NCBI RefSeq assembly: GCF_040278685.1
Contig: NZ_JBEOKT010000001.1
Location: 223,398-263,397, forward strand
Source: Pontibacter populi
Lineage (GTDB): Bacteria > Bacteroidota > Bacteroidia > Cytophagales > Hymenobacteraceae
Reading direction: 5' to 3'
DNA length: 40,000 bases
Part shown: positions 8,136-37,935 of the stretch, in pieces
Layout of the letters: the number at the start of each line of letters is the position of its first letter
Numbering within the stretch: position 1 is the stretch's first letter
Position numbers and translations under genes: made by a program
Notes under the pieces: generated by a model
What the model was told of the DNA's origin: nothing
The model's database searches: none
The model's input: the letters and a program-made list of their open reading frames with translations, nothing else

Positions 8136-8150
8136 TCAATTCCTGCTTTA

Positions 8151-8174
8151 TCATTTCGACGAAAGGAGAAATCT
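8151..8174. repeat. hairpin cassette TCATTTCGACGAAAGGAGAAATCT
   Basis: Exact 24/24 reverse complement of 27223-27246. A related variant lies at 23321-23348. Confidence 0.7.
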
Positions 8175-8243
8175 ATCTCAGCTTATAGTTCTATAGTTTG
8201 TGCCTTCCTTTGTTTTTAGGGGAAGACTGGGATGGGATAAAAC

Positions 8244-20032: not shown

Positions 20033-20854
20033 ATGTCAGTTCAGAAAAAAACCGATGTAAAAGTGATCACCACGCACCAGTTGCAAAACATGAAGGAGCG
20101 CGGCGAAAAAATATCGATGCTTACCGCCTACGACTTTTCCATGGCTACTATTCTGGACGCGGCCGGAATCGATGTAATACTGGTGGGTGACTCGGCATCA
20201 AACGTTATGGCTGGCCACGAAACTACGCTACCTATTACCCTGGACCAGATGATCTATCATGCCCAGTCAGTGATAAGGGGTACAAAGCGTGCTTTTGTAG
20301 TGGTAGATATGCCATTTGGTTCTTACCAGGGCAATTCATCTGAAGCGCTTCGTTCAGCAATCCGAATCATGAAAGAGTCCGGGGCGCATGGCGTGAAACT
20401 GGAAGGCGGTGCTGAGATAAAAGAATCTATTACACGCATACTGAGTGCAGGCGTTCCGGTAATGGGGCACCTGGGCTTAACACCGCAGTCTATCTATAAA
20501 TTTGGCACTTACACTGTTCGCGCTAAAGCAGAAGCCGAAGCACAGAAACTGATAGAGGATGCACAGCTGCTCCAGGAGCTGGGTTGTTTTGCTATAGTTC
20601 TGGAAAAGATACCATCTGAGCTGGCAAAACGCGTTGCTGAATCGCTGGAAATCCCGATAATTGGTATTGGCGCCGGTCCGCACGTTGATGGCCAGGTGCT
20701 GGTAGTACACGATATGCTGGGTATTAACAAAGAATTTAAGCCCCGCTTTTTACGCCGCTACGCTGACCTGCACACCATTATGACAGATGCTGTGCAGAAC
20801 TACATAAAAGACGTAAAAGACCGCGATTTCCCGACCGAAAAAGAAGCATATTAG
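20033..20854 (+). CDS. panB: 3-methyl-2-oxobutanoate hydroxymethyltransferase
   Basis: Full-length PanB similarity (LTAYD, VGDSxxxVxxGH, KLEGG, GHxGLTPQ, GIGAG). Confidence 0.9.
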
Positions 20855-20893
20855 AGTTTAGGAGTTTGAGAGCTTGGGAGTTAAAGATTTAGT
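20854..20893 (+). repeat. octad array AGTTNNNN x4-5, almost C-free
   Basis: AGTTTAGG AGTTTGAG AGCTTGGG AGTTAAAG ATTTAGTT. It starts on the last base of the panB stop and runs into the next ORF start. Confidence 0.55.
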
Positions 20894-21806: not shown

Positions 21807-22553
21807 ATGGCTATCCTGATTTTCTTTTTAGTACACTGGTACTTATCACTTTTTGTACAGACGTTTTTCCTGCACCGCTATGCAGCACATAAGATGTTTA
21901 CCATGAACCCGTTCTGGGAGAAAGCATTTTACCTGCTGACATATATTGCACAGGGTTCTTCGTTTTTATCGCCACGTGCATACGCTATTTTGCACCGCAT
22001 GCACCACGCCTTCTCAGACACTGAGCGCGACCCGCATTCGCCGCATTTCTCTAACAATGCTTTCACGATGATGTGGAAGACCAAGAATATCTACAACGAT
22101 GTGCTGAACAATCGCGTGGAGGCAGAACGCCGTTTTGAAGGCGATTATCCGGTTTGGAATGCTATCGAGAAACTTGGTGATTCTTACTTCTCACGTATTG
22201 GCTGGGGTGTAGTATATGTGCTGTTCTACATTCAGTTTGCTGAGTTCTGGTGGATGTTCCTGCTGCTGCCGATTCACTTTCTGATGGGCCCGGTGCATGG
22301 CGCTATCGTAAACTGGAGCGGCCATAAATACGGTTATCAGAACTTCGATAACAACGACAAATCAAGAAACTCCCTTTTCTTCGACTTTTTAACCGGCGGC
22401 GAATTGTTTCAGAACAACCACCACAAACTGCCTAACCGCGTTAACTTCGGCGTAAAGTGGTGGGAAGTAGACCCAACCTGGCCGGTTATCTGGACATTGA
22501 ATAAGCTAAGCATTATAAAACTGAAGCCTGCCAAGGTAAAAGTAAAAGCATAA
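21807..22553 (+). CDS. acyl-CoA/fatty-acid desaturase
   Basis: Three histidine boxes (HRYAAH, HRMHH, NNHH) and a TM topology. Confidence 0.85.
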   Translation: MAILIFFLVHWYLSLFVQTFFLHRYAAHKMFTMNPFWEKAFYLLTYIAQGSSFLSPRAYAILHRMHHAFSDTERDPHSPHFSNNAFTMMWKTKNIYNDVLNNRVEAERRFEGDYPVWNAIEKLGDSYFSRIGWGVVYVLFYIQFAEFWWMFLLLPIHFLMGPVHGAIVNWSGHKYGYQNFDNNDKSRNSLFFDFLTGGELFQNNHHKLPNRVNFGVKWWEVDPTWPVIWTLNKLSIIKLKPAKVKVKA

Positions 22554-22559
22554 AGAAAA

Positions 22560-22587
22560 GCCCTTCGGAAACGGAGGGCTTTTTTTG
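22560..22587 (+). terminator. rho-independent terminator
   Basis: GCCCTTC / GGAGGGC stem with one G:U pair and a GGAAAC loop, followed by T7. Confidence 0.75.
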
Positions 22588-22647
22588 TTTGTCATATCCC
22601 CAGCCCTCTCCTAAAAACAGGAGAGGGAGTTTAAGTAAAACTATATT

Positions 22648-23352
22648 TTTATAGTTCACTTCAGCTGGCGCGAGTCTCCAGACTCGTGACTTACGATGGT
22701 GTTGAGTCTCCTGACTCAACTGTCCCTGCAGGGACAAGACCAGTAGTATCTGTGGCTATAGTTCTATAGTTACCGATATCCAACCACCCAAACCCTCAGA
22801 GCTATGCTCGCTACCTTCGAAATCTCTTCTCGGTAGTCTAAGGTGGGAATTTTTTGGCCTTTTACTTTGTCATCTCGAAGAGCGTGAGAGATCTGATACA
22901 GTTTGTCATCCCCCTTCGCCCCCTTCAAAGGGGGACTTTCTGCTGTTGTTATAGTTAGCTTTATAGTTCTATAGTTACAGCCTGTCACGCGGACAGGTCG
23001 CGACCTGTCCCTACGGAAATACAGCCACGATAAATCTCGAAGCGTGAAGTTTCAAATTATAGATAGAGGTTGCTATGCGAAACGTATCAGTCTTTGGGTT
23101 GAGCGCCTTTGATTTGTTGCGGTGGCGCAGCCAACCCGAGGCACGAGGGTAGCTTCAAATCAGCAGCGCGATGCCCAAAGACGGGGCCTCCCGGCCGTGA
23201 GGGCACCTAAGCTGGTTTGAAACGATAGGTAACTAAAGCTCCCAGCATTAGAAGCAACTATGGAAGTATAGCTTGTGTCAAGCAAGTACAGGCTCAAGCT
23301 ATAGAACTATAAGCTGCAATAGATTTCTCGCTCAAGCTCGAAATGACAATAG
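22648..23352 (+). repeat. ORF-less mosaic stem-loop element, copy A (~705 bp)
   Basis: Colinear with 26576-27252, roughly 75-85% identical in shared blocks by eye. It contains at least 6 hairpin cassettes separated by TATAGTT motifs. Confidence 0.8.
23049..23223 (+). ncRNA. candidate structured RNA core of element copy A (strand not established)
   Basis: Closing helix GTTTCAAA (23049-23056) / TTTGAAAC (23216-23223). Invariant 9-bp helix GTCTTTGGG (23090-23098) / CCCAAAGAC (23174-23182). The inner helices differ from copy B but remain complementary. Confidence 0.3.
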
Positions 23353-23432
23353 AAAAGAATCTACCTATTAAATCAACTATAAATCTGTAACTTATAAAAG
23401 CATGAACCACAAAAATGACACACTAACTATAG

Positions 23433-23515: not shown

Positions 23516-24070
23516 ATGGCTGTTAAAATCAGACTGGCCCGCAGAGGCCGCAAAAAAGCCGCTATCTACGATATCGTAGTAGCAGACGCTCGTTCGCCAC
23601 GTGATGGTAAGTTCATCGAGAAACTGGGTACTTACAACCCTAACACTAACCCTGCGTCTATCGACTTCTCTGACGAGAAGGCATTCCAGTGGTTGATGAA
23701 TGGAGCGCAACCAACTGACACTGTAAAAGCAATGCTTTCTTACAGAGGTATCCTTTTCAAAAAACACCTTCAGATTGGTGTAAACAAAGGTGCTATCACT
23801 CAGGAAACTGCTGATGCTCGTTTCGAAGAGTGGAAGAACGCGAAAGATGCGAAGATCGCAGGTAAAGTTGAAAGCCTGGGTTCTGCTAAAGAAGCTGCTA
23901 AGAAAGCTGCTCTTGAAGCTGAGACCAAGAAGAAAGAAGCTCGTGCAGAAGCTATCCGTCAGCGTGATGCTGATAAGGCTGCTGCTAACGCACCTGCTGC
24001 TGAAGAAGAAGCTACTGAAGCTCCAGAGGCATCTGCCGAAGGCGAAGCTACTACTGAAGAGCAAGCATAA
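23516..24070 (+). CDS. rpsP: 30S ribosomal protein S16 with long K/A/E-rich C-terminal extension
   Basis: [14 protein letters not shown]...YNP core. 184 aa against about 80-90 aa for a canonical S16. Confidence 0.9.
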
Positions 24071-25985: not shown

Positions 25986-26573
25986 ATGAATCGCGTTACC
26001 ACTGCCCTATTCCTGCTTATCACTCTGTTGCTATATAGTTGCCAGACAGATTATGCCACATTACCCACTTACTCCGGAGCCAGGCAATTGCAGGCTGTTA
26101 TAGAAACTCCTGCTGGCTCCAGCCAATCGGTTATTTATAACCTAAGAACAAAGGAGTTCGCGAACGAAAAATTAGCCGGGAAAGATAGAATTCTACAGTT
26201 CTTGCCTTACCCGGGTAACTATGGCTTTATACCATCTACAGAGGTTGGCGCAAACGGAAGAGGATTAAGCACCCTGGTACTGGCAGAGCGCGCCGAAAGC
26301 GGAACAGTAATGGAGGTATTGCCTATCGGAACCATTATGCTGGAAAAACCATCCGGTGATCTGTATCCTGTCATTATCTCGGTACCAGCCCGCCCAAGTG
26401 AGCGAACTATAAAAGCCACCAACTTTAAAAGCCTGACCATAGAACACCCGGTTGTCAAAAATATACTACAGCAGTGGTTTGTAAATCACACCTACCCTAA
26501 CCAGTTTAAGTTTGTAGGTTGGAAAGATGAGCAGTTTGCAGAGAAAGAGATACAGCGCTGGATGAAGTTGTAG
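25986..26573 (+). CDS. lipoprotein with inorganic-pyrophosphatase-like fold, probably catalytically degenerate
   Basis: Lipobox LYSC. The VIETPAGS and YPGNYGFIP motifs align to family I PPase, but the DGDPxD metal site reads NGRGLS. Confidence 0.6.
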   Translation: MNRVTTALFLLITLLLYSCQTDYATLPTYSGARQLQAVIETPAGSSQSVIYNLRTKEFANEKLAGKDRILQFLPYPGNYGFIPSTEVGANGRGLSTLVLAERAESGTVMEVLPIGTIMLEKPSGDLYPVIISVPARPSERTIKATNFKSLTIEHPVVKNILQQWFVNHTYPNQFKFVGWKDEQFAEKEIQRWMKL

Positions 26574-26575
26574 TT

Positions 26576-27252
26576 TTATAGTTCGTGCTGCCGCGAGTCT
26601 CCAGACTCGTGATTTAGGATAGTGTTGAGTCTCCTGACTCCATTGGCCCGGTAGGGCCAAAGCCAGTAGTAGCTTTGGCAATAATACTATAGTTGGCGTT
26701 ATCCAACCACCCCCAACCCCTCAGAGCTACGCTCGCTACCTTCAAAATCTCTTCTCGGTAGTCTAAGGCGGGGAGATTTTGCGACAATAGCTTAAATTGC
26801 TGTTATCGTTCTATAGTTGGCAAACACACCCCTACCCCTCTCAAGAGGGGAATTTCTGCTGCTGTTATAGTTGGCTTTATAGTTCTATAGTTACAGCCTG
26901 TCGAGCGGACAGGTCGCGACCTGTCCCTACGGAACTATAGCCACGATAAAGCTCGGAGCTTATCGTTTCAAACTATAGACAAACCATAACTATGAGAAAT
27001 ATCACAGTCTTTGGGTTGAGCGCCTTGTGAATATCTGGTGTCGCAGGCATTGCGACGTAGGAGCAAAAGAGATTCGCACAGCGCGATGCCCAAAGACGGG
27101 GCCTCCCGGCCGTGAGGGCACCAAAGCCTGATTGAAACGATAGGTAAGTAAAGCTCCCAGGATTAAAAGTAATTTGAAACTATGGCTTGGTTCCAGTTAG
27201 AAACATCGCAACTATAGAACTCAGATTTCTCCTTTCGTCGAAATGACAAGAG
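26576..27252 (+). repeat. ORF-less mosaic stem-loop element, copy B (~677 bp)
   Basis: Direct repeat of 22648-23352. It starts 3 nt after the stop codon at 26573. Confidence 0.8.
26961..27142 (+). ncRNA. candidate structured RNA core of element copy B (strand not established)
   Basis: 11-bp closing helix TATCGTTTCAA (26961-26971) / TTGAAACGATA (27132-27142). 9-bp helix 27007-27015 / 27089-27097. Inner hairpin GTCGCA-GGCAT-TGCGAC at 27040-27056. Confidence 0.3.
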
Positions 27253-27333: not shown

Positions 27334-28044
27334 CTACTTTACTTGTAAAAGCTTAGCGCGAACAGTTTCAACAGCTTTCTCCATTTCCTGCACCTGCTGC
27401 TTGCTGGCTTCCTGCTTTTTAATGTTGTTCTGTACTTCCTGCTCCAGTTTCTTTAGGTCTTCGGCGTTCTTTACCAGTTCAGCTTCCAGTTCCAGTTTGC
27501 GTTGCTGGTTCTTGGTAATACCTGTTTGTATATCGTTGGCTTGCTTTACTACACGCTCCTGCTCCTGTTTGGTAGCTTTTAAAACTTCCTCAGCCTGGTT
27601 TATCTGTCTGAAAATATCTTCTTTGTAAGCTTTGCGAGCGAATGCCTGCATAAAACCTTCGGCGGCGGCATATTCTTTTGGCGTAGCGGCTTTATCTACA
27701 TACGCCACACCCATATCCAGCGACCACCACACATAGCTGCCTTCCGGATCGCTGCCGACCGTAGAGATAATGCGCATCGGGGTACTTGTTATAGTATCCA
27801 GCACAACACCATCCAGGGTATAAACGCCTTTGGTGTGTTTCATTTTAATTTTACCGGATTTCTCGGTGAGTTGGGCCTTCCAGAGCTTTTCTACAAAAGC
27901 GGGATCCAGCTGCACGGTTAGCTGCTGTCCTCGCCTGTTTACACCGTTCACGGTTTGCTCTTTCTCCTCTACCCGCCCGGATTGGGCATAACTCAAACCA
28001 GCTACCATACATAGTAGCCCCAGTAGTAAAGCTTTCAGTCTCAT
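27334..28044 (-). CDS. secreted protein with C-terminal coiled coil, unknown function
   Basis: Signal peptide and a K/E/Q-rich heptad-like C-terminal third. 236 aa. Confidence 0.55.
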   Translation of the reverse strand: MRLKALLLGLLCMVAGLSYAQSGRVEEKEQTVNGVNRRGQQLTVQLDPAFVEKLWKAQLTEKSGKIKMKHTKGVYTLDGVVLDTITSTPMRIISTVGSDPEGSYVWWSLDMGVAYVDKAATPKEYAAAEGFMQAFARKAYKEDIFRQINQAEEVLKATKQEQERVVKQANDIQTGITKNQQRKLELEAELVKNAEDLKKLEQEVQNNIKKQEASKQQVQEMEKAVETVRAKLLQVK

Positions 28045-35441: not shown

Positions 35442-35915
35442 GTGAAGCTGATCTATGTAATATTGGCCGGGCTGGCTGGTGCTGCAGCTATGTCTGCCGT
35501 AATTTACCTGCTCTCTCTGGCAACAAACCGCGTTTTACGAATACCACTGGTGCTCGGAACCATGCTGCTTGGCAGAACCCACCCCGATGGTAGCCTGTCG
35601 AATGGGATGGCTGCTAAACTGGTAGGCGGGCTGGCACACTATACTGTCGGTGTTTTATATGCTATTGGCTACCTGGCTCTCTGGGAAAGTGGCGTAGGCA
35701 CTATTACTGCTTCGTGGGGCATGCTTATTGGTTTAGGAAACGGCATCTTCGCCATGATCATCTGGTATTTCTTTTTCATGATCCACCCCAGGCCACCACA
35801 CATTAAACTGGAAAGATACCTCATCGAAATAGTGTTCAGTCATGTATTTTTCGGCTTTGTCGTTACCTATGTGTATTATCACCTTACACATGTCGAGTAT
35901 CCGTTCTGGCAATGA
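35442..35915 (+). CDS. hypothetical integral membrane protein
   Basis: 157 aa with 4 predicted TM helices. The GTG start is uncertain. Confidence 0.5.
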   Translation: MKLIYVILAGLAGAAAMSAVIYLLSLATNRVLRIPLVLGTMLLGRTHPDGSLSNGMAAKLVGGLAHYTVGVLYAIGYLALWESGVGTITASWGMLIGLGNGIFAMIIWYFFFMIHPRPPHIKLERYLIEIVFSHVFFGFVVTYVYYHLTHVEYPFWQ

Positions 35916-35920
35916 TTTAT

Positions 35921-35991
35921 AGTTTAGGAGTTGGGGAGTTTATGAGTTAGAGAGTTAAAAAGTTTAGAAGTTAGAAAGGGATGAGTTTTAA
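35921..35991 (+). repeat. octad array AGTTNNNN x7 in phase plus one more out of phase; C-free for ~70 nt
   Basis: AGTTTAGG AGTTGGGG AGTTTATG AGTTAGAG AGTTAAAA AGTTTAGA AGTTAGAA at 35921-35976, then AGTTTTAA at 35984. An AATCCTG-type repeat x4 follows at 36018-36057. Confidence 0.7.
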
Positions 35992-36129: not shown

Positions 36130-37935
36130 TTAGCCATTCATCGAGATCAGGAATTCTTCGTTGCTCTTCGTGCCAACCATTCTGTCTTTCAGGAACTCCA
36201 TAGCTTCTACAGAATTCATATCTGACATAAACTTGCGCAGTATCCAGATACGGTTCAGTTCATCTCTGTCCATCAGCAGGTCTTCGCGGCGTGTTCCCGA
36301 AGCAGGAACATCGATAGCAGGGTAAATTCTTCTGTTGGCCAGTTTACGATCCAACTGAAGCTCCATGTTGCCGGTACCTTTAAATTCTTCGAAGATAACT
36401 TCATCCATCTTAGAACCTGTGTCGATAAGCGCAGTGGCGATGATAGTTAATGAACCACCATTCTCTACGTTACGGGCAGCACCAAAGAAACGCTTCGGCT
36501 TGTGCAGCGCGTTGGCATCCACACCACCCGATAATATCTTACCAGACGACGGAACAACCGTGTTATAAGCACGGGCCAGACGCGTGATCGAATCCAGAAG
36601 TATAACCACATCGTGGCCGCACTCTACCATTCGCTTAGCTTTATCCAGTACAATGCTCGATACTTTCACGTGGCGCTCGGCAGTCTCATCAAACGTAGAT
36701 GCAATAACTTCCGCTTTTACGCTACGTGCCATATCCGTTACCTCTTCTGGGCGTTCGTCAATCAGCAGGATCATCAGGTATACCTCCGGATGGTTCTCAG
36801 AAATAGCATTGGCTATCTCTTTCAGTAACACGGTTTTACCTGTTTTAGGCTGCGCCACGATCATACCACGCTGGCCTTTACCGATCGGGGCAAAAAGGTC
36901 CAGAATTCGGGTTGAAAGCTGACTTGGCTTGGTAGTTAATTTTAAGCGCTCCTCAGGGAAAAGCGGCGTTAAGTGCTGGAACGGAATACGGTCACGAATT
37001 TCTTCCGTGGTACGTCCGTTTACAGTCTCAACCTTAAGCAGGGCAAAATATTTCTCGCCTTCTTTCGGCGGGCGGATCTGGCCTTTTACAGTATCACCTG
37101 TCTTCAGACCAAATAATTTTATCTGCGATGGCGATACATAAATATCGTCCGGCGATGCCAGGTAGTTATAGTGTGTAGAACGCAGGAAACCATACCCATC
37201 CTGCATCAGCTCCAACACACCTTCGTTTAGTATTATACCATCAAACTCCTTAAAGATATTGCCACCCGCGTTTGCATTCTGCTGTTGTGGGTTGTTACGA
37301 CGCTGATTGTTGTCGTAGCGGTTATCCGGTCTGTTTGATTGCTGGTCGCTGCGTTGCTCGCGGTTATCCTGGCGTGGCTCCCTGTTTTCAGGGCGTTGCT
37401 CGCGGTTGTCGTTGCGGTTTTCAGAACGTTGCTCACGTCCGTCGTTACGCTCGCGTGGCTCGCGGCTTTGCGTTTCGGCACGTTCCGGCCTTGGCTCGCG
37501 GCTTTGGTTCTCAGCTCGCTCTGCTCTAGGCTCGCGGTTTTCTGTGCGTGGTTCGCTTGTTGTCTGTTCCCTGTTTTCGCGGCGAGGCTGTGTACGTTCG
37601 CGTTGCGGGCCGTGATCTTTAACGGGCGCTGAGGCAGGTTTTGGTGCACGCTCTGGTTGCTCGGCACGTGCAATTGGTCTTGCTGCTACCGGGGCTGGAG
37701 CTTCTTCTTCTATAGTTGCAATTTCAGGAGATGATTCGCTTGTTGGGGCGGCAGAACTGGCAGCAGGCTTGATCTTTTTGGGTAATTTCTCAGGAGGGGT
37801 TATGGCTTGCTGATCCAGGATCTTGTAGATGATGTCCTGTTTGCTCAGTTTTTTGAAGTTCTGAACGCCCAGGTCCTCTGCAATTTCCTTGAGTTCTGAA
37901 AGAAGCCTATCTTTCAATTCTTCAATATTGTACAT
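36130..37935 (-). CDS. rho: transcription termination factor Rho with ~180-aa low-complexity N-terminal insertion
   Basis: Rho_N helix bundle, a CSD-like RNA-binding domain, Walker A/B motifs and a conserved C-terminus. 601 aa against 419 aa in E. coli. Confidence 0.95.

What the first reader, a model, noticed from the sequence alone, without database searches (positions are those of the whole stretch)
23049..23223. Conserved ~180-nt multi-helix core with compensatory changes: candidate novel structured RNA
The same architecture can be drawn in both element copies. A closing helix is present in each: GTTTCAAA/TTTGAAAC (8 bp) in A, and TATCGTTTCAA/TTGAAACGATA (11 bp) at 26961-26971 / 27132-27142 in B. 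An invariant 9-bp helix GTCTTTGGG/CCCAAAGAC follows (A 23090-23098 / 23174-23182; B 27007-27015 / 27089-27097), then a GCGC/GCGC step. The inner helix differs in sequence but stays complementary. In A it is TGATTTG/CAAATCA (23110-23116 / 23156-23162). In B it is GTGAAT..CT / AG..ATTCGCAC with bulges. The apical hairpin appears strand-swapped: TGCG-GTGG-CGCA in A and GTCGCA-GGCAT-TGCGAC in B. The 3' tail GGGGCCTCCCGGCCGTGAGGGCACC is identical in both. Structure retained despite sequence divergence is typical of a functional RNA or single-stranded DNA fold. I could not match it to any family I know, including 6S, SRP, tmRNA, RNase P, retron msr-msd and HEARO/omega-RNA. No RT, IscB or TnpB gene is adjacent.
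Basis: partly seen in the sequence, partly recalled or inferred. Interest (0 to 1): 0.66.

Follow-up and report, generated by a model that had tools for sequence, protein, structure and literature searches.

The report
Structured core of a Pontibacter repeat
The flagged 175 bases are the conserved, folded core of a protein-less intergenic repeat present in roughly 7-30 copies per Pontibacter genome; its fold is well supported by compensatory changes and matches no catalogued RNA family, but it belongs to a familiar class (structured bacterial interspersed repeats) and its function is still unknown.

Summary
Both window copies (A 23090-23207, B 27007-27122, + strand) fold the same way. The fold is backed by 71 homologues: 2 from the window, 62 from six Pontibacter genomes and 7 from metagenomes. 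In these, 92.8% of cells are paired against 36-51% for slid controls, 20 of 37 pairs change on both sides, and 0 of 500 shuffles reach the observed score.

The conserved fold is a 10-bp stem, a near-invariant UGA/GAU loop (tandem G.A), a GCGC stem, an ~11-bp stem in at least 5 sequence types, and a three-way junction with two short hairpins. A 3' hairpin follows.

No Rfam family matches, and there are no viral or plasmid hits. No protein gene recurs next to the element.

The core sits inside a ~0.55-0.65 kb composite unit with a fixed module order. Copies are old (72-78% identical within a genome). They lie mostly downstream of co-oriented genes (47 vs 13) and between convergent genes (24 vs 4 divergent).

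Best reading: a new family of structured interspersed repeats of the bcr1/REP/ERIC kind, probably acting as RNA in 3' regions. A single-stranded DNA role or an independent ncRNA are live rivals.

The parts
22590..23357 (+). Composite repeat unit, copy A (between the desaturase-like gene ending at 22553 and rpsP at 23516)
   Evidence: A and B are similar over 22664-23257. The module order is conserved in other loci. The whole unit is inverted between Tf4 and P. humidus.
22604..22627 (+). Leftmost hairpin CCCTCTCCT-AAAAAC-AGGAGAGGG
   Evidence: I25. The same module sits at the left end of the units in L003, L011 and L114.
22919..22944 (+). Terminator-like hairpin CCCCCTTCAAAGGGGG followed by ACTTTCTGCT
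   Evidence: 25 of 28 matches to this module lie within 700 nt of a core; the commonest positions, all co-oriented, are 250-400 nt upstream.
22991..23014 (+). P0 hairpin GGACAGG-TCGCGA-CCTGTCC followed by CTAC
   Evidence: It lies at a fixed distance of 177-194 nt upstream of the anchor in about 40 copies. It covaries with GGCAGGC-GCA-GCCTGCC, and a loop variant TTTA exists.
23090..23182 (+). Core hairpin, copy A. P2 23090-23099/23173-23182; loop UGA 23100-23102 / GAU 23170-23172; P3 23103-23106/23166-23169; P4 23110-23120/23152-23162; hairpin a 23123-23133; hairpin b 23134-23150.
23183..23207 (+). 3' hairpin P8, copy A. CCC 23190-23192 / GGG 23201-23203; alternative or pseudoknotted GGCC 23185-23188 / GGCC 23193-23196.
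   Evidence: The middle pair is C-G in 35 copies, G-C in 21 and U-A in 11. The GGCC helix is 98% paired with one double change.
23235..23247 (+). Conserved single-stranded tail motif AAAGCUCCCAG(G/C)A
   Evidence: Nearly invariant in alignment A2. It occurs only about 50-100 nt after the anchor (the 50-nt bin starting at +50), co-oriented.
23321..23349 (+). 3' module AGATTTCTC...TCGAAATGACAA
   Evidence: (I3) and 65: 21 of 21 occurrences lie within 700 nt of a core.
26575..27250 (+). Composite repeat unit, copy B (between the gene ending at 26573 and the convergent gene 27334-28044)
26907..26930 (+). P0 hairpin plus CTAC, copy B
27007..27097 (+). Core hairpin, copy B (P2 27007-27016/27088-27097; a different P4 sequence type)
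27098..27122 (+). 3' hairpin P8, copy B
27150..27162 (+). Tail motif AAAGCTCCCAGGA, copy B
27223..27249 (+). 3' module AGATTTCTCC...TCGAAATGACAA, copy B

Best explanation
What it is. The feature is the conserved core of a Pontibacter-wide family of dispersed intergenic repeat units that carry no protein gene. Each unit is about 0.55-0.65 kb. The window holds two units, which flank the rpsP-rimM-trmD-rplS operon.

The fold. The + strand of the core forms a T-shaped hairpin of about 95 nt:
- a sequence-invariant 10-bp basal stem ending in a conserved U.G pair;
- a near-invariant 3x3 loop UGA/GAU, that is, tandem sheared G.A;
- a GCGC stem;
- an ~11-bp stem that exists in at least five interchangeable sequence types;
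- a three-way junction bearing two short hairpins capped by GNA or GNNA loops, one of them with a second tandem G.A.
A small covarying 3' hairpin and a conserved AAAGCUCCCAGGA tail follow.

Most likely mechanism. The unit is carried on transcripts that read out of the upstream, co-oriented gene. It acts in cis as RNA: a stable, protein-recognised structural module that shapes 3'-end processing or decay of neighbouring transcripts. This is how REP/BIME/SMAG, ERIC and bcr1 repeats work. The units were spread in the past by machinery acting in trans. They now persist as old copies, partly at conserved loci, that exchange segments by gene conversion.

Shown: the family, its copy number and taxonomic range, the fold, the functional strand, the composite architecture, the genomic context and the age of the copies.
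Inferred: transcription, the effect on mRNAs, the protein partner and the mode of spread.
For: Family:
- An exact 19-mer from the core finds 68 Pontibacter loci in six species-level genomes and one MAG, several of them at MAG contig ends.
- Seven further, more divergent copies occur in metagenomes.

Fold:
- 92.8% of cells paired, 20 of 37 pairs with double changes, 0 of 500 shuffles reach the score.
- P2 covaries only in the metagenome outliers L096 and L114.
- P8 is supported.

Strand:
- The U.G pair that closes P2 is conserved in 70 of 71 copies.
- Elsewhere there are 44 G.U against 17 A.C cells.
- On the other strand the tandem G.A pairs and GNA loops would be pyrimidine mismatches.

Constraint:
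- Mean pairwise identity is 0.80 in the core and 0.63-0.66 in the flanks.
- Unpaired loop and junction bases are among the most conserved columns.

Context:
- The upstream gene is co-oriented in 47 cases and opposed in 13.
- 24 copies lie between convergent genes and 4 between divergent genes.
- In tandem gene settings, 20 copies are sense and 9 antisense.
- No canonical Bacteroidetes -7 box accumulates on the + strand inside the unit, which fits read-through transcription.

One unit: all modules occur only next to cores in 492 kb of held sequence.

Precedent: the review PMC3184786 describes bcr1 as transcribed, with compensatory changes that keep an RNA structure. It also reports REPs biased to convergent gene pairs, and SMAG repeats that alter the stability of upstream transcripts.
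Against: - There are no expression data, so transcription and RNA ends are unknown.
- Copy A follows a gene that has its own strong terminator (22553-22586). The unit itself begins with terminator-like hairpins. Read-through into the core is therefore not assured.
- 13 of 60 copies are antisense to the upstream gene.
- The strict conservation of P2 and of the internal loop goes beyond what a simple exonuclease barrier needs.
- GNA triloops closed by C-G, together with tandem G.A pairs, are also the signature of very stable DNA hairpins (general knowledge).
- No U-tract follows the hairpins, so the element is not an intrinsic terminator.
Confidence: 0.45

Rival explanations
1. The fold works as single-stranded DNA. 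The + strand hairpins (P0 and the T-shaped core) would be recognition and cleavage substrates for a trans-encoded single-strand transposase or recombinase, as in REP/RAYT or the non-autonomous derivatives of IS200/IS605. The unit would then be a non-autonomous mobile element.
For: - Hairpin loops are almost all C-GNA-G, G-GNA-C or GNNA, and there are two tandem G.A steps. From general knowledge, these are the hallmarks of unusually stable DNA mini-hairpins, of parvovirus ITRs (also T-shaped) and of Streptomyces telomere fold-backs.
- P0 is a hairpin followed by CTAC, which reads GTAG-plus-palindrome on the other strand. That is the REP/SMAG signature (PMC3184786).
- In L018 the 5' arm has been converted into a perfect complement of the 3' arm. 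This quasipalindrome correction requires the hairpin to form in DNA.
- The same convergent intergenic site holds the whole unit in opposite orientations in two species.
- The window lacks the unit where the MAG locus L031 has one.
Against: - No near-identical copies exist: the maximum is 87% identity, with a mean of 72-78% within a genome.
- No transposase or any other recurrent gene lies within 2.5 kb in about 70 loci.
- No target-site duplication was found. The only inverted 'ends' are made of the genome-wide CTATAG palindrome.
- CTAC is not kept in the P0 variants.
- Orientation does not follow local GC skew (a weak test).
- DNA and RNA energy models do not discriminate.
Confidence: 0.22
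2. Each copy is an independently expressed ncRNA gene of about 200 nt, running from GCUAUCGAA through the core to AAAGCUCCCAGGA. Its product acts in trans, as a protein-binding scaffold or RNP component or as a self-processing RNA.
For: - The most conserved positions are unpaired: the UGA/GAU loop, the junction GG and A, and the GACGGGGCC linker. Distal stems vary freely. This is the pattern of specific recognition or tertiary structure.
- The most divergent homologue, L114, keeps the 5' GCUAUCGAAAGA motif, the core and a variant tail, but lacks P0 and most other modules.
- Some loci hold a copy in several species.
Against: - No conserved promoter motif lies upstream on the + strand (the sigma-70-type scan found only weak matches).
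- No terminator follows the core.
- 7-30 or more copies per genome is unusual for a trans-acting RNA.
- The bias toward sites downstream of co-oriented genes and between convergent genes is what passive or cis elements show.
- Hybrid copies with broken P4 stems (L041, L044) and a copy that has lost the loop (L018) are tolerated.
Confidence: 0.2
3. There is no selected structure. The pairing would be a by-product of inverted-repeat ancestry or of alignment fitting, or the region would be coding.
For: - The alignment used for counting was fitted to the model.
- The copies are related, so shuffle controls overstate significance.
- P2 and P3 hardly vary within Pontibacter.
Against: - Slid-partner controls, which keep relatedness, fall to 36-51% paired and to 0.04-0.055 covariation.
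- RNAalifold on an unfitted MAFFT alignment already finds 8 pairs with double changes.
- There are several independent pair types per position, for example C-G, G-C and U-A.
- No ORF of 60 aa or more covers the core.
Confidence: 0.03

Closest known systems
bcr1 repeat of the Bacillus cereus group
   Same: A dispersed chromosomal repeat of about 150 nt with no ORF. Its genomic distribution is not conserved. It has a multi-stem fold kept by compensatory base changes (PMC3184786, read).
   Different: There is no sequence relation and the phylum differs. bcr1 has 5-bp direct repeats and is known to be transcribed; neither is shown here. The Pontibacter core is embedded in a larger unit with a fixed module order, and it has strongly conserved internal-loop bases.
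REP / BIME / SMAG elements (with RAYT transposases)
   Same: Interspersed extragenic hairpins, enriched between convergent genes and downstream of genes. The upstream P0 hairpin with an adjacent CTAC (GTAG on the other strand) resembles a REP. SMAG repeats modulate upstream transcript stability.
   Different: REPs are simple palindromes of 20-40 nt, present in hundreds of copies and often paired as REPINs. This core is a ~115-nt branched fold present in tens of copies. No RAYT gene was seen near any copy. The GTAG is not kept in the P0 variants.
Bacterial MITEs (Correia/NEMIS, ERIC, Nezha and similar)
   Same: Small, non-coding, multicopy and intergenic, and able to fold into long hairpins in RNA.
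   Different: There are no genuine terminal inverted repeats and no target-site duplication. No young, near-identical copies exist. The two arms of the fold are not IS-end copies of each other.
T- or Y-shaped single-stranded DNA hairpins (parvovirus ITRs, Streptomyces telomere fold-backs)
   Same: A long stem capped by two small hairpins, GNA loops closed by C-G, and sheared purine pairs. This is a resemblance recalled from general knowledge.
   Different: Those sit at the ends of linear replicons and prime replication. These elements are internal, chromosomal and multicopy. The resemblance is a lead only and was not tested.
Transposon-encoded guide or scaffold RNAs (TnpB/IscB omega-RNA, HEARO, IS110 bridge RNA) and the retron msr-msd
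   Same: Structured non-coding RNAs of 150-250 nt associated with mobile DNA.
   Different: All of these are defined by an adjacent effector gene, and none is present in about 70 loci. The Rfam models for HEARO and the IS605-orfB RNAs gave no hit. No variable guide-like segment is present.

Membership tests
Any Rfam 15 family | A covariance-model score at or above the gathering threshold, or a consistent sub-threshold hit across copies | tested here: not met
   There were no gathering-level hits in the 40-kb window. No hit overlaps either core at E <= 10. No hit falls on the core in 16 further loci at E <= 5.
omega-RNA (TnpB/IscB), IS110 bridge RNA, retron ncRNA | An adjacent gene for the cognate effector (TnpB, IscB, IS110 recombinase or reverse transcriptase) | tested here: not met
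   ORFs of 120 aa or more within 2.5 kb of 70 copies were clustered. The largest clusters have 3-5 members and are housekeeping families (OmpA-like proteins, response regulators, histidine kinases, ABC ATPases) at varying positions. In the window the neighbours are a desaturase-like gene, rpsP, a pyrophosphatase-like gene and a coiled-coil protein gene.
MITE | Terminal inverted repeats | tested here: inconclusive
   A 25-nt inverted pair, 88% complementary, lies at 22961-22985 / 23288-23312, and copy similarity tends to end there. It consists of CTATAG motifs, however, which are a genome-wide iterated palindrome. The right arm is only partly kept in copy B.
MITE | Target-site duplication and filled-versus-empty sites | tested here: not met
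   No direct repeat was seen at the unit junctions in the Tf4/humidus pair. The one site that could be compared (window versus L031) is occupied by other sequence rather than being cleanly empty.
MITE (recently active) | Near-identical copies within a genome | tested here: not met
   Within-genome identity over 400 nt averages 72-78%, with a maximum of 87%.
REP / RAYT system | A short imperfect palindrome preceded by GTAG | tested here: inconclusive
   P0 reads GTAG-GGACAGG-TCGCGA-CCTGTCC on the - strand in about 40 copies. Variant P0 hairpins carry CCAC, CCAA or CTTT instead of CTAC. The core itself is not REP-like.
REP / RAYT system | A RAYT (Y1 transposase) gene in the genome, usually flanked by REPs | not tested
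bcr1-like structured repeats | A dispersed non-coding repeat whose fold is kept by compensatory changes | tested here: met
bcr1-like structured repeats | Transcribed into RNA | not testable with these tools
   No expression data are available.

The most novel reading that the evidence does not exclude
The ~200-nt unit (GCUAUCGAA, the T-shaped core, the P8 hairpin and the AAAGCUCCCAGGA tail) may be a previously undescribed functional RNA class, encoded in tens of copies per genome in Pontibacter and relatives. It could be a scaffold for a specific RNA-binding protein or a self-processing RNA. The near-invariant UGA/GAU loop, the junction bases and the possible P8 pseudoknot would form the functional centre. 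The rest of the composite unit would be only its vehicle.
Probability: 0.15. Interest if true: 0.75.

Novelty: new member of a known kind. Interest (0 to 1): 0.42.

Why it matters
- It adds a well-supported structured nucleic-acid family from a poorly studied clade (Hymenobacteraceae, Bacteroidota). The family is absent from Rfam and comes with a ready covariance model.
- Its conservation pattern is unusual for a repeat: invariant loops, freely covarying distal stems and interchangeable stem "types". That makes it a good test case for whether interspersed repeats are kept for a host function or for their own spread, and whether the selected fold is RNA or single-stranded DNA.
- For annotation, it explains long conserved non-coding stretches and contig breaks in Pontibacter assemblies.

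Tried and rejected
- Closing helix P1 as a family feature. Duplex energies of a copy's own 5' and 3' flanks are no better than those of cross-copy pairs. It was rejected as conserved, although a proximal CUAUCG/CGAUAG plus GAUC/GAU pairing exists in a subset of copies.
- Long-range helices closing a ~400-nt RNA. RNAalifold on 61 sequences of 400 nt predicts only P0, the core and P8.
- Genuine terminal inverted repeats. The candidate arms are CTATAG iterated palindromes.
- An 8-nt direct repeat TAAAGCTC flanking the core, considered as a target duplication. It does not co-vary between copies (read) and was dropped.
- A recurrent neighbouring protein: none found.
- Rfam at gathering and permissive thresholds: nothing on the core.
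- Viral contigs and plasmids: no match.
- A replication-linked orientation. Local GC skew splits 28 positive to 29 negative, which is uninformative.
- A Bacteroidetes-type -7 box (TAnnTTTG). There is no positional peak on the + strand. A weak peak on the - strand at +40 to +60 in 11 of 52 copies lacks a -33 partner.
- DNA versus RNA energy parameters and + versus - strand MFE: all z-scores lie between -2.2 and -2.7, so they do not discriminate.
- Of the 93 metagenome pattern hits, 86 were chance matches in GC-rich coding DNA and were discarded.
- Literature searches for Pontibacter repeats or RNA motifs found nothing specific.

Full report
**Setting**

The window is Bacteroidota DNA of Pontibacter type. 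The finding lies in a 960-nt non-coding gap between a desaturase-like gene (21807-22553, with a strong terminator at 22553-22586) and rpsP (23516-24070). A second copy lies about 3.9 kb downstream. It follows rimM, trmD, rplS and a pyrophosphatase-like gene, and it faces a convergent gene at 27334-28044. The two copies are 84-91% identical in blocks over about 600 nt, at 22664-23257 and 26587-27172.

**Checking the observation**

MFE folding of both copies gives the same long hairpin.

To test whether this exceeds chance I collected homologues:
- An exact 19-mer from the 3' arm (GATGCCCAAAGACGGGGCC) found 70 loci in the genome collection. Sixty-eight are Pontibacter: about 15 in P. fetidus, about 10 in P. 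burrus, 7 in P. humidus, 6 in strain H259, about 27 in one MAG, 2 in Tf4 and 1 in P. aydingkolensis. Many of the MAG hits lie at contig ends, as expected for a repeat.
- A gapped pattern built on the internal loop found 7 further, more divergent copies in metagenomes, among 86 chance hits.

I wrote a structure by hand and used it to build covariance model R1. The model recovers every copy at E values of 1e-32 to 1e-52. It finds nothing else in the window or in 0.5 Mb of held loci.

On the resulting 71-sequence alignment:
- 92.8% of cells form standard pairs, against 36-51% when the 3' partners are slid by 1-3 columns.
- 20 of 37 pairs change on both sides, in 290 cells.
- The covariation score is 0.285, against 0.04-0.055 for the slid controls, and 0 of 500 shuffles reach it.

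RNAalifold on a plain MAFFT alignment had already shown 8 pairs with double changes. The structure is therefore real.

**Anatomy (copy A coordinates)**

- P2: 23090-23099 pairs with 23173-23182 (GUCUUUGGGU/GCCCAAAGAC). It is invariant within Pontibacter. It is compensated in the metagenome outliers (GCCUUCGGG/CCCGGAGGC in L096, GUCCUUGGG/CCCAAGGAC in L114). The closing U.G pair is kept in 70 of 71 copies.
- Internal loop: a near-invariant 3x3 loop, UGA/GAU. It can form U.U plus tandem sheared G.A.
- P3: GCGC/GCGC.
- P4: 23110-23120 pairs with 23152-23162. This is an ~11-bp irregular stem that occurs in at least five sequence types. In the window, A has UGAUUUG/CAAAUCA and B has UGUGAAUAUCU/AGAGAUUCGCA. 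Eight of its ten modelled pairs show double changes.
- Junction: a three-way junction with hairpin a (UGGC-GCA-GCCA; the stem alternates UGCC/GGCA and UGGC/GCCA) and hairpin b (ACCC-GA-G-GCA-C-GA-GGGU). Hairpin b has a second tandem G.A flanked by pairs that flip between C-G and G-C.
- P8: a 3' hairpin whose middle pair is C-G, G-C or U-A in 35, 21 and 11 copies. It may form a pseudoknot with a GGCC/GGCC helix.
- Tail: a conserved AAAGCUCCCAGGA motif.

The closing helix is not family-wide. The apical 'strand-swapped' hairpin is replaced by the two-hairpin junction.

**Strand**

Besides the conserved U.G, paired cells contain 44 G.U against 17 A.C. The G.A steps and the GNA/GNNA loops make sense only on the + strand. 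MFE z-scores do not separate the strands, and DNA and RNA parameters do not differ usefully.

**What the core belongs to**

Similarity between copies extends well beyond the core. The order of modules is fixed:
1. a CCCTCTCC...GGAGAGGG hairpin;
2. a CCCCTC...GAGGGG hairpin followed by AAUUUCUGCU;
3. a CTATAG-rich spacer;
4. hairpin P0 (GGACAGG-TCGCGA-CCTGTCC followed by CTAC), about 180 nt upstream of the anchor. It covaries with GGCAGGC-GCA-GCCTGCC;
5. the core;
6. the tail;
7. an AGATTTCTC...TCGAAATGACAA module.

In 492 kb of held Pontibacter DNA, nearly all occurrences of these modules (164 of 170 for the five core-linked ones; 184 of 193 over all eight patterns) lie within 700 nt of a core and at consistent offsets. 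This is therefore one composite unit of about 0.55-0.65 kb, not a mosaic of independent repeats.

The apparent inverted ends at 22961-22985 and 23288-23312 are built from CTATAG. That motif is a genome-wide iterated palindrome (70 copies in 40 kb), so I do not accept them as transposon ends.

**Neighbours and context**

No protein family recurs next to the element. I made codon-usage-filtered gene calls to score context:
- The upstream gene is co-oriented in 47 cases and opposed in 13.
- 24 copies lie between convergent genes and only 4 between divergent genes.
- In tandem settings 20 copies are sense and 9 antisense.

No canonical Bacteroidetes -7 box accumulates on the + strand inside the unit.

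**Age and dynamics**

- Copies within a genome are only 72-78% identical over 400 nt (maximum 87%). This is barely above between-species pairs at 70%. The core averages 80% and the flanks 63-66%. There has been no recent burst, and the core is under stronger constraint than the rest.
- Seven locus pairs are syntenic between species with the unit in the same orientation (three with both flanks matched, four with only the downstream flank). In an eighth pair (Tf4 versus P. humidus) the whole ~650-nt unit sits in opposite orientation between the same two convergent genes.
- Copies at syntenic loci usually carry different P4 types. They are no more alike than random paralogues. This points to gene conversion, replacement or saturation.
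- Hybrid copies with mismatched P4 arms (L041, L044) fit recombination between copies.
- In L018 the 5' arm has been rewritten as the exact complement of the 3' arm. This is a DNA-level quasipalindrome correction.

**Interpretation**

The class is clear. This is a structured, non-coding interspersed repeat with a taxonomically narrow range. The closest described analogues are bcr1 of the B. cereus group, the REP/BIME/SMAG elements and ERIC-type repeats. The review I read (PMC3184786) reports for these the same hallmarks:
- compensatory changes that preserve an RNA fold (bcr1);
- enrichment between convergent genes (REP);
- effects on upstream transcript stability (SMAG).

I therefore commit to a cis-acting RNA module in 3' regions as the most likely mechanism (0.45).

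Two rivals remain serious:
- A single-stranded DNA substrate for a trans-acting HUH-type enzyme (0.22). It is favoured by the GNA triloops, the G.A steps, the REP-like P0 and the L018 conversion.
- An independently expressed ~200-nt ncRNA or RNP component (0.20). It is favoured by the invariant unpaired bases and by L114, which keeps only the ~200-nt unit.

A structureless artefact is very unlikely (0.03).

**Comparison with known families**

- No Rfam family matches.
- The effector-adjacency criterion for omega-RNAs, bridge RNAs and retron RNAs fails.
- The MITE criteria fail (target-site duplication, young copies) or are inconclusive (terminal inverted repeats).
- The REP criteria are partly met by P0 only.

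The element is thus a new family of a known kind. There is a modest chance (about 0.15) that the core is a genuinely new functional RNA class.

Noticed in passing
whole window (e.g. 22756, 22764, 22969, 23299, 26885, 26935, 26973): CTATAG (extended consensus AACTATAGTT) is a highly iterated palindrome. It occurs 70 times in 40 kb, against 27 for the next commonest 6-mer palindrome. Its density is 5.0 per kb in non-coding and 1.16 per kb in coding sequence. This resembles the HIP1 palindrome of cyanobacteria.
   Followed up: partly
L018:4059-4197 (-), Pontibacter sp. H259: In this copy the 5' arm of P2-P4 is the exact complement of the 3' arm (GGGCATCGCGCGGTGTACATTTCT / AGAAATGTACACCGCGCGATGCCC), which erases the conserved internal loop. 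It looks like template-switch correction of a quasipalindrome, and so is evidence that the hairpin forms in DNA.
   Followed up: partly
L049:6242-6403 (+); L112:191-350 (-); L003 (unit left hairpin): Inserts of about 21 nt of the form ...GAGGGCCCCT(A/G)CCCCC sit inside hairpin loops: the P8 loop in L049 and L112, and the CCTCTCC/GGAGAGG hairpin in L003. They may be a separate tiny insertion element that targets hairpin loops.
   Followed up: no
L003 (Pontibacter Tf4) versus L011 (P. humidus): The same intergenic site between two convergent orthologous genes carries the whole ~650-nt unit in opposite orientations in the two species.
   Followed up: yes
L004/L015, L018/L049, L026/L065, L024/L067, L036/L039, L038/L063: Copies at syntenic loci in different species usually carry different P4 sequence types. 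They are no more similar than random paralogues, which suggests gene conversion or replacement.
   Followed up: partly
window 8150-8200: A solitary, reverse-oriented fragment of the 3' module (GATTCGACGAAAGGAGAAATCT) plus CTTATAGTTCTATAGTT lies in the intergenic region. The MAG locus L031 has a full unit at the corresponding site.
   Followed up: partly
window 22664-22750 and 26587-26670: Extra upstream hairpins are shared by copies A and B (GCGAGTCTCCAGACTCG, GTTGAGTCTCCTGACTCAAC, GTCCCTGCAGGGAC). The GAGTCTCC(A/T)GACTC motif gives 9 matches in the held loci and window, 8 of them within 700 nt of a core (5 at about -500).
   Followed up: partly
window 20843-20891 and 35909-35981: Short tandem arrays with an 8-nt period (GAGTTNNG-like units) lie in or near intergenic spacers. 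The first sits between panB and the pseudouridine synthase gene (family D1).
   Followed up: no
window 37456-37527: A 36-nt tandem duplication (75% identity) lies inside the long - strand ORF 36130-37935 (family D8).
   Followed up: no
+40 to +60 after the anchor, - strand, in 11 of 52 copies: TAGCTTTG, a match to the Bacteroidetes -7 box TAnnTTTG, occurs on the antisense strand just 3' of P8. I saw no -33 TTG partner in one representative copy checked by eye, so its significance is doubtful.
   Followed up: partly
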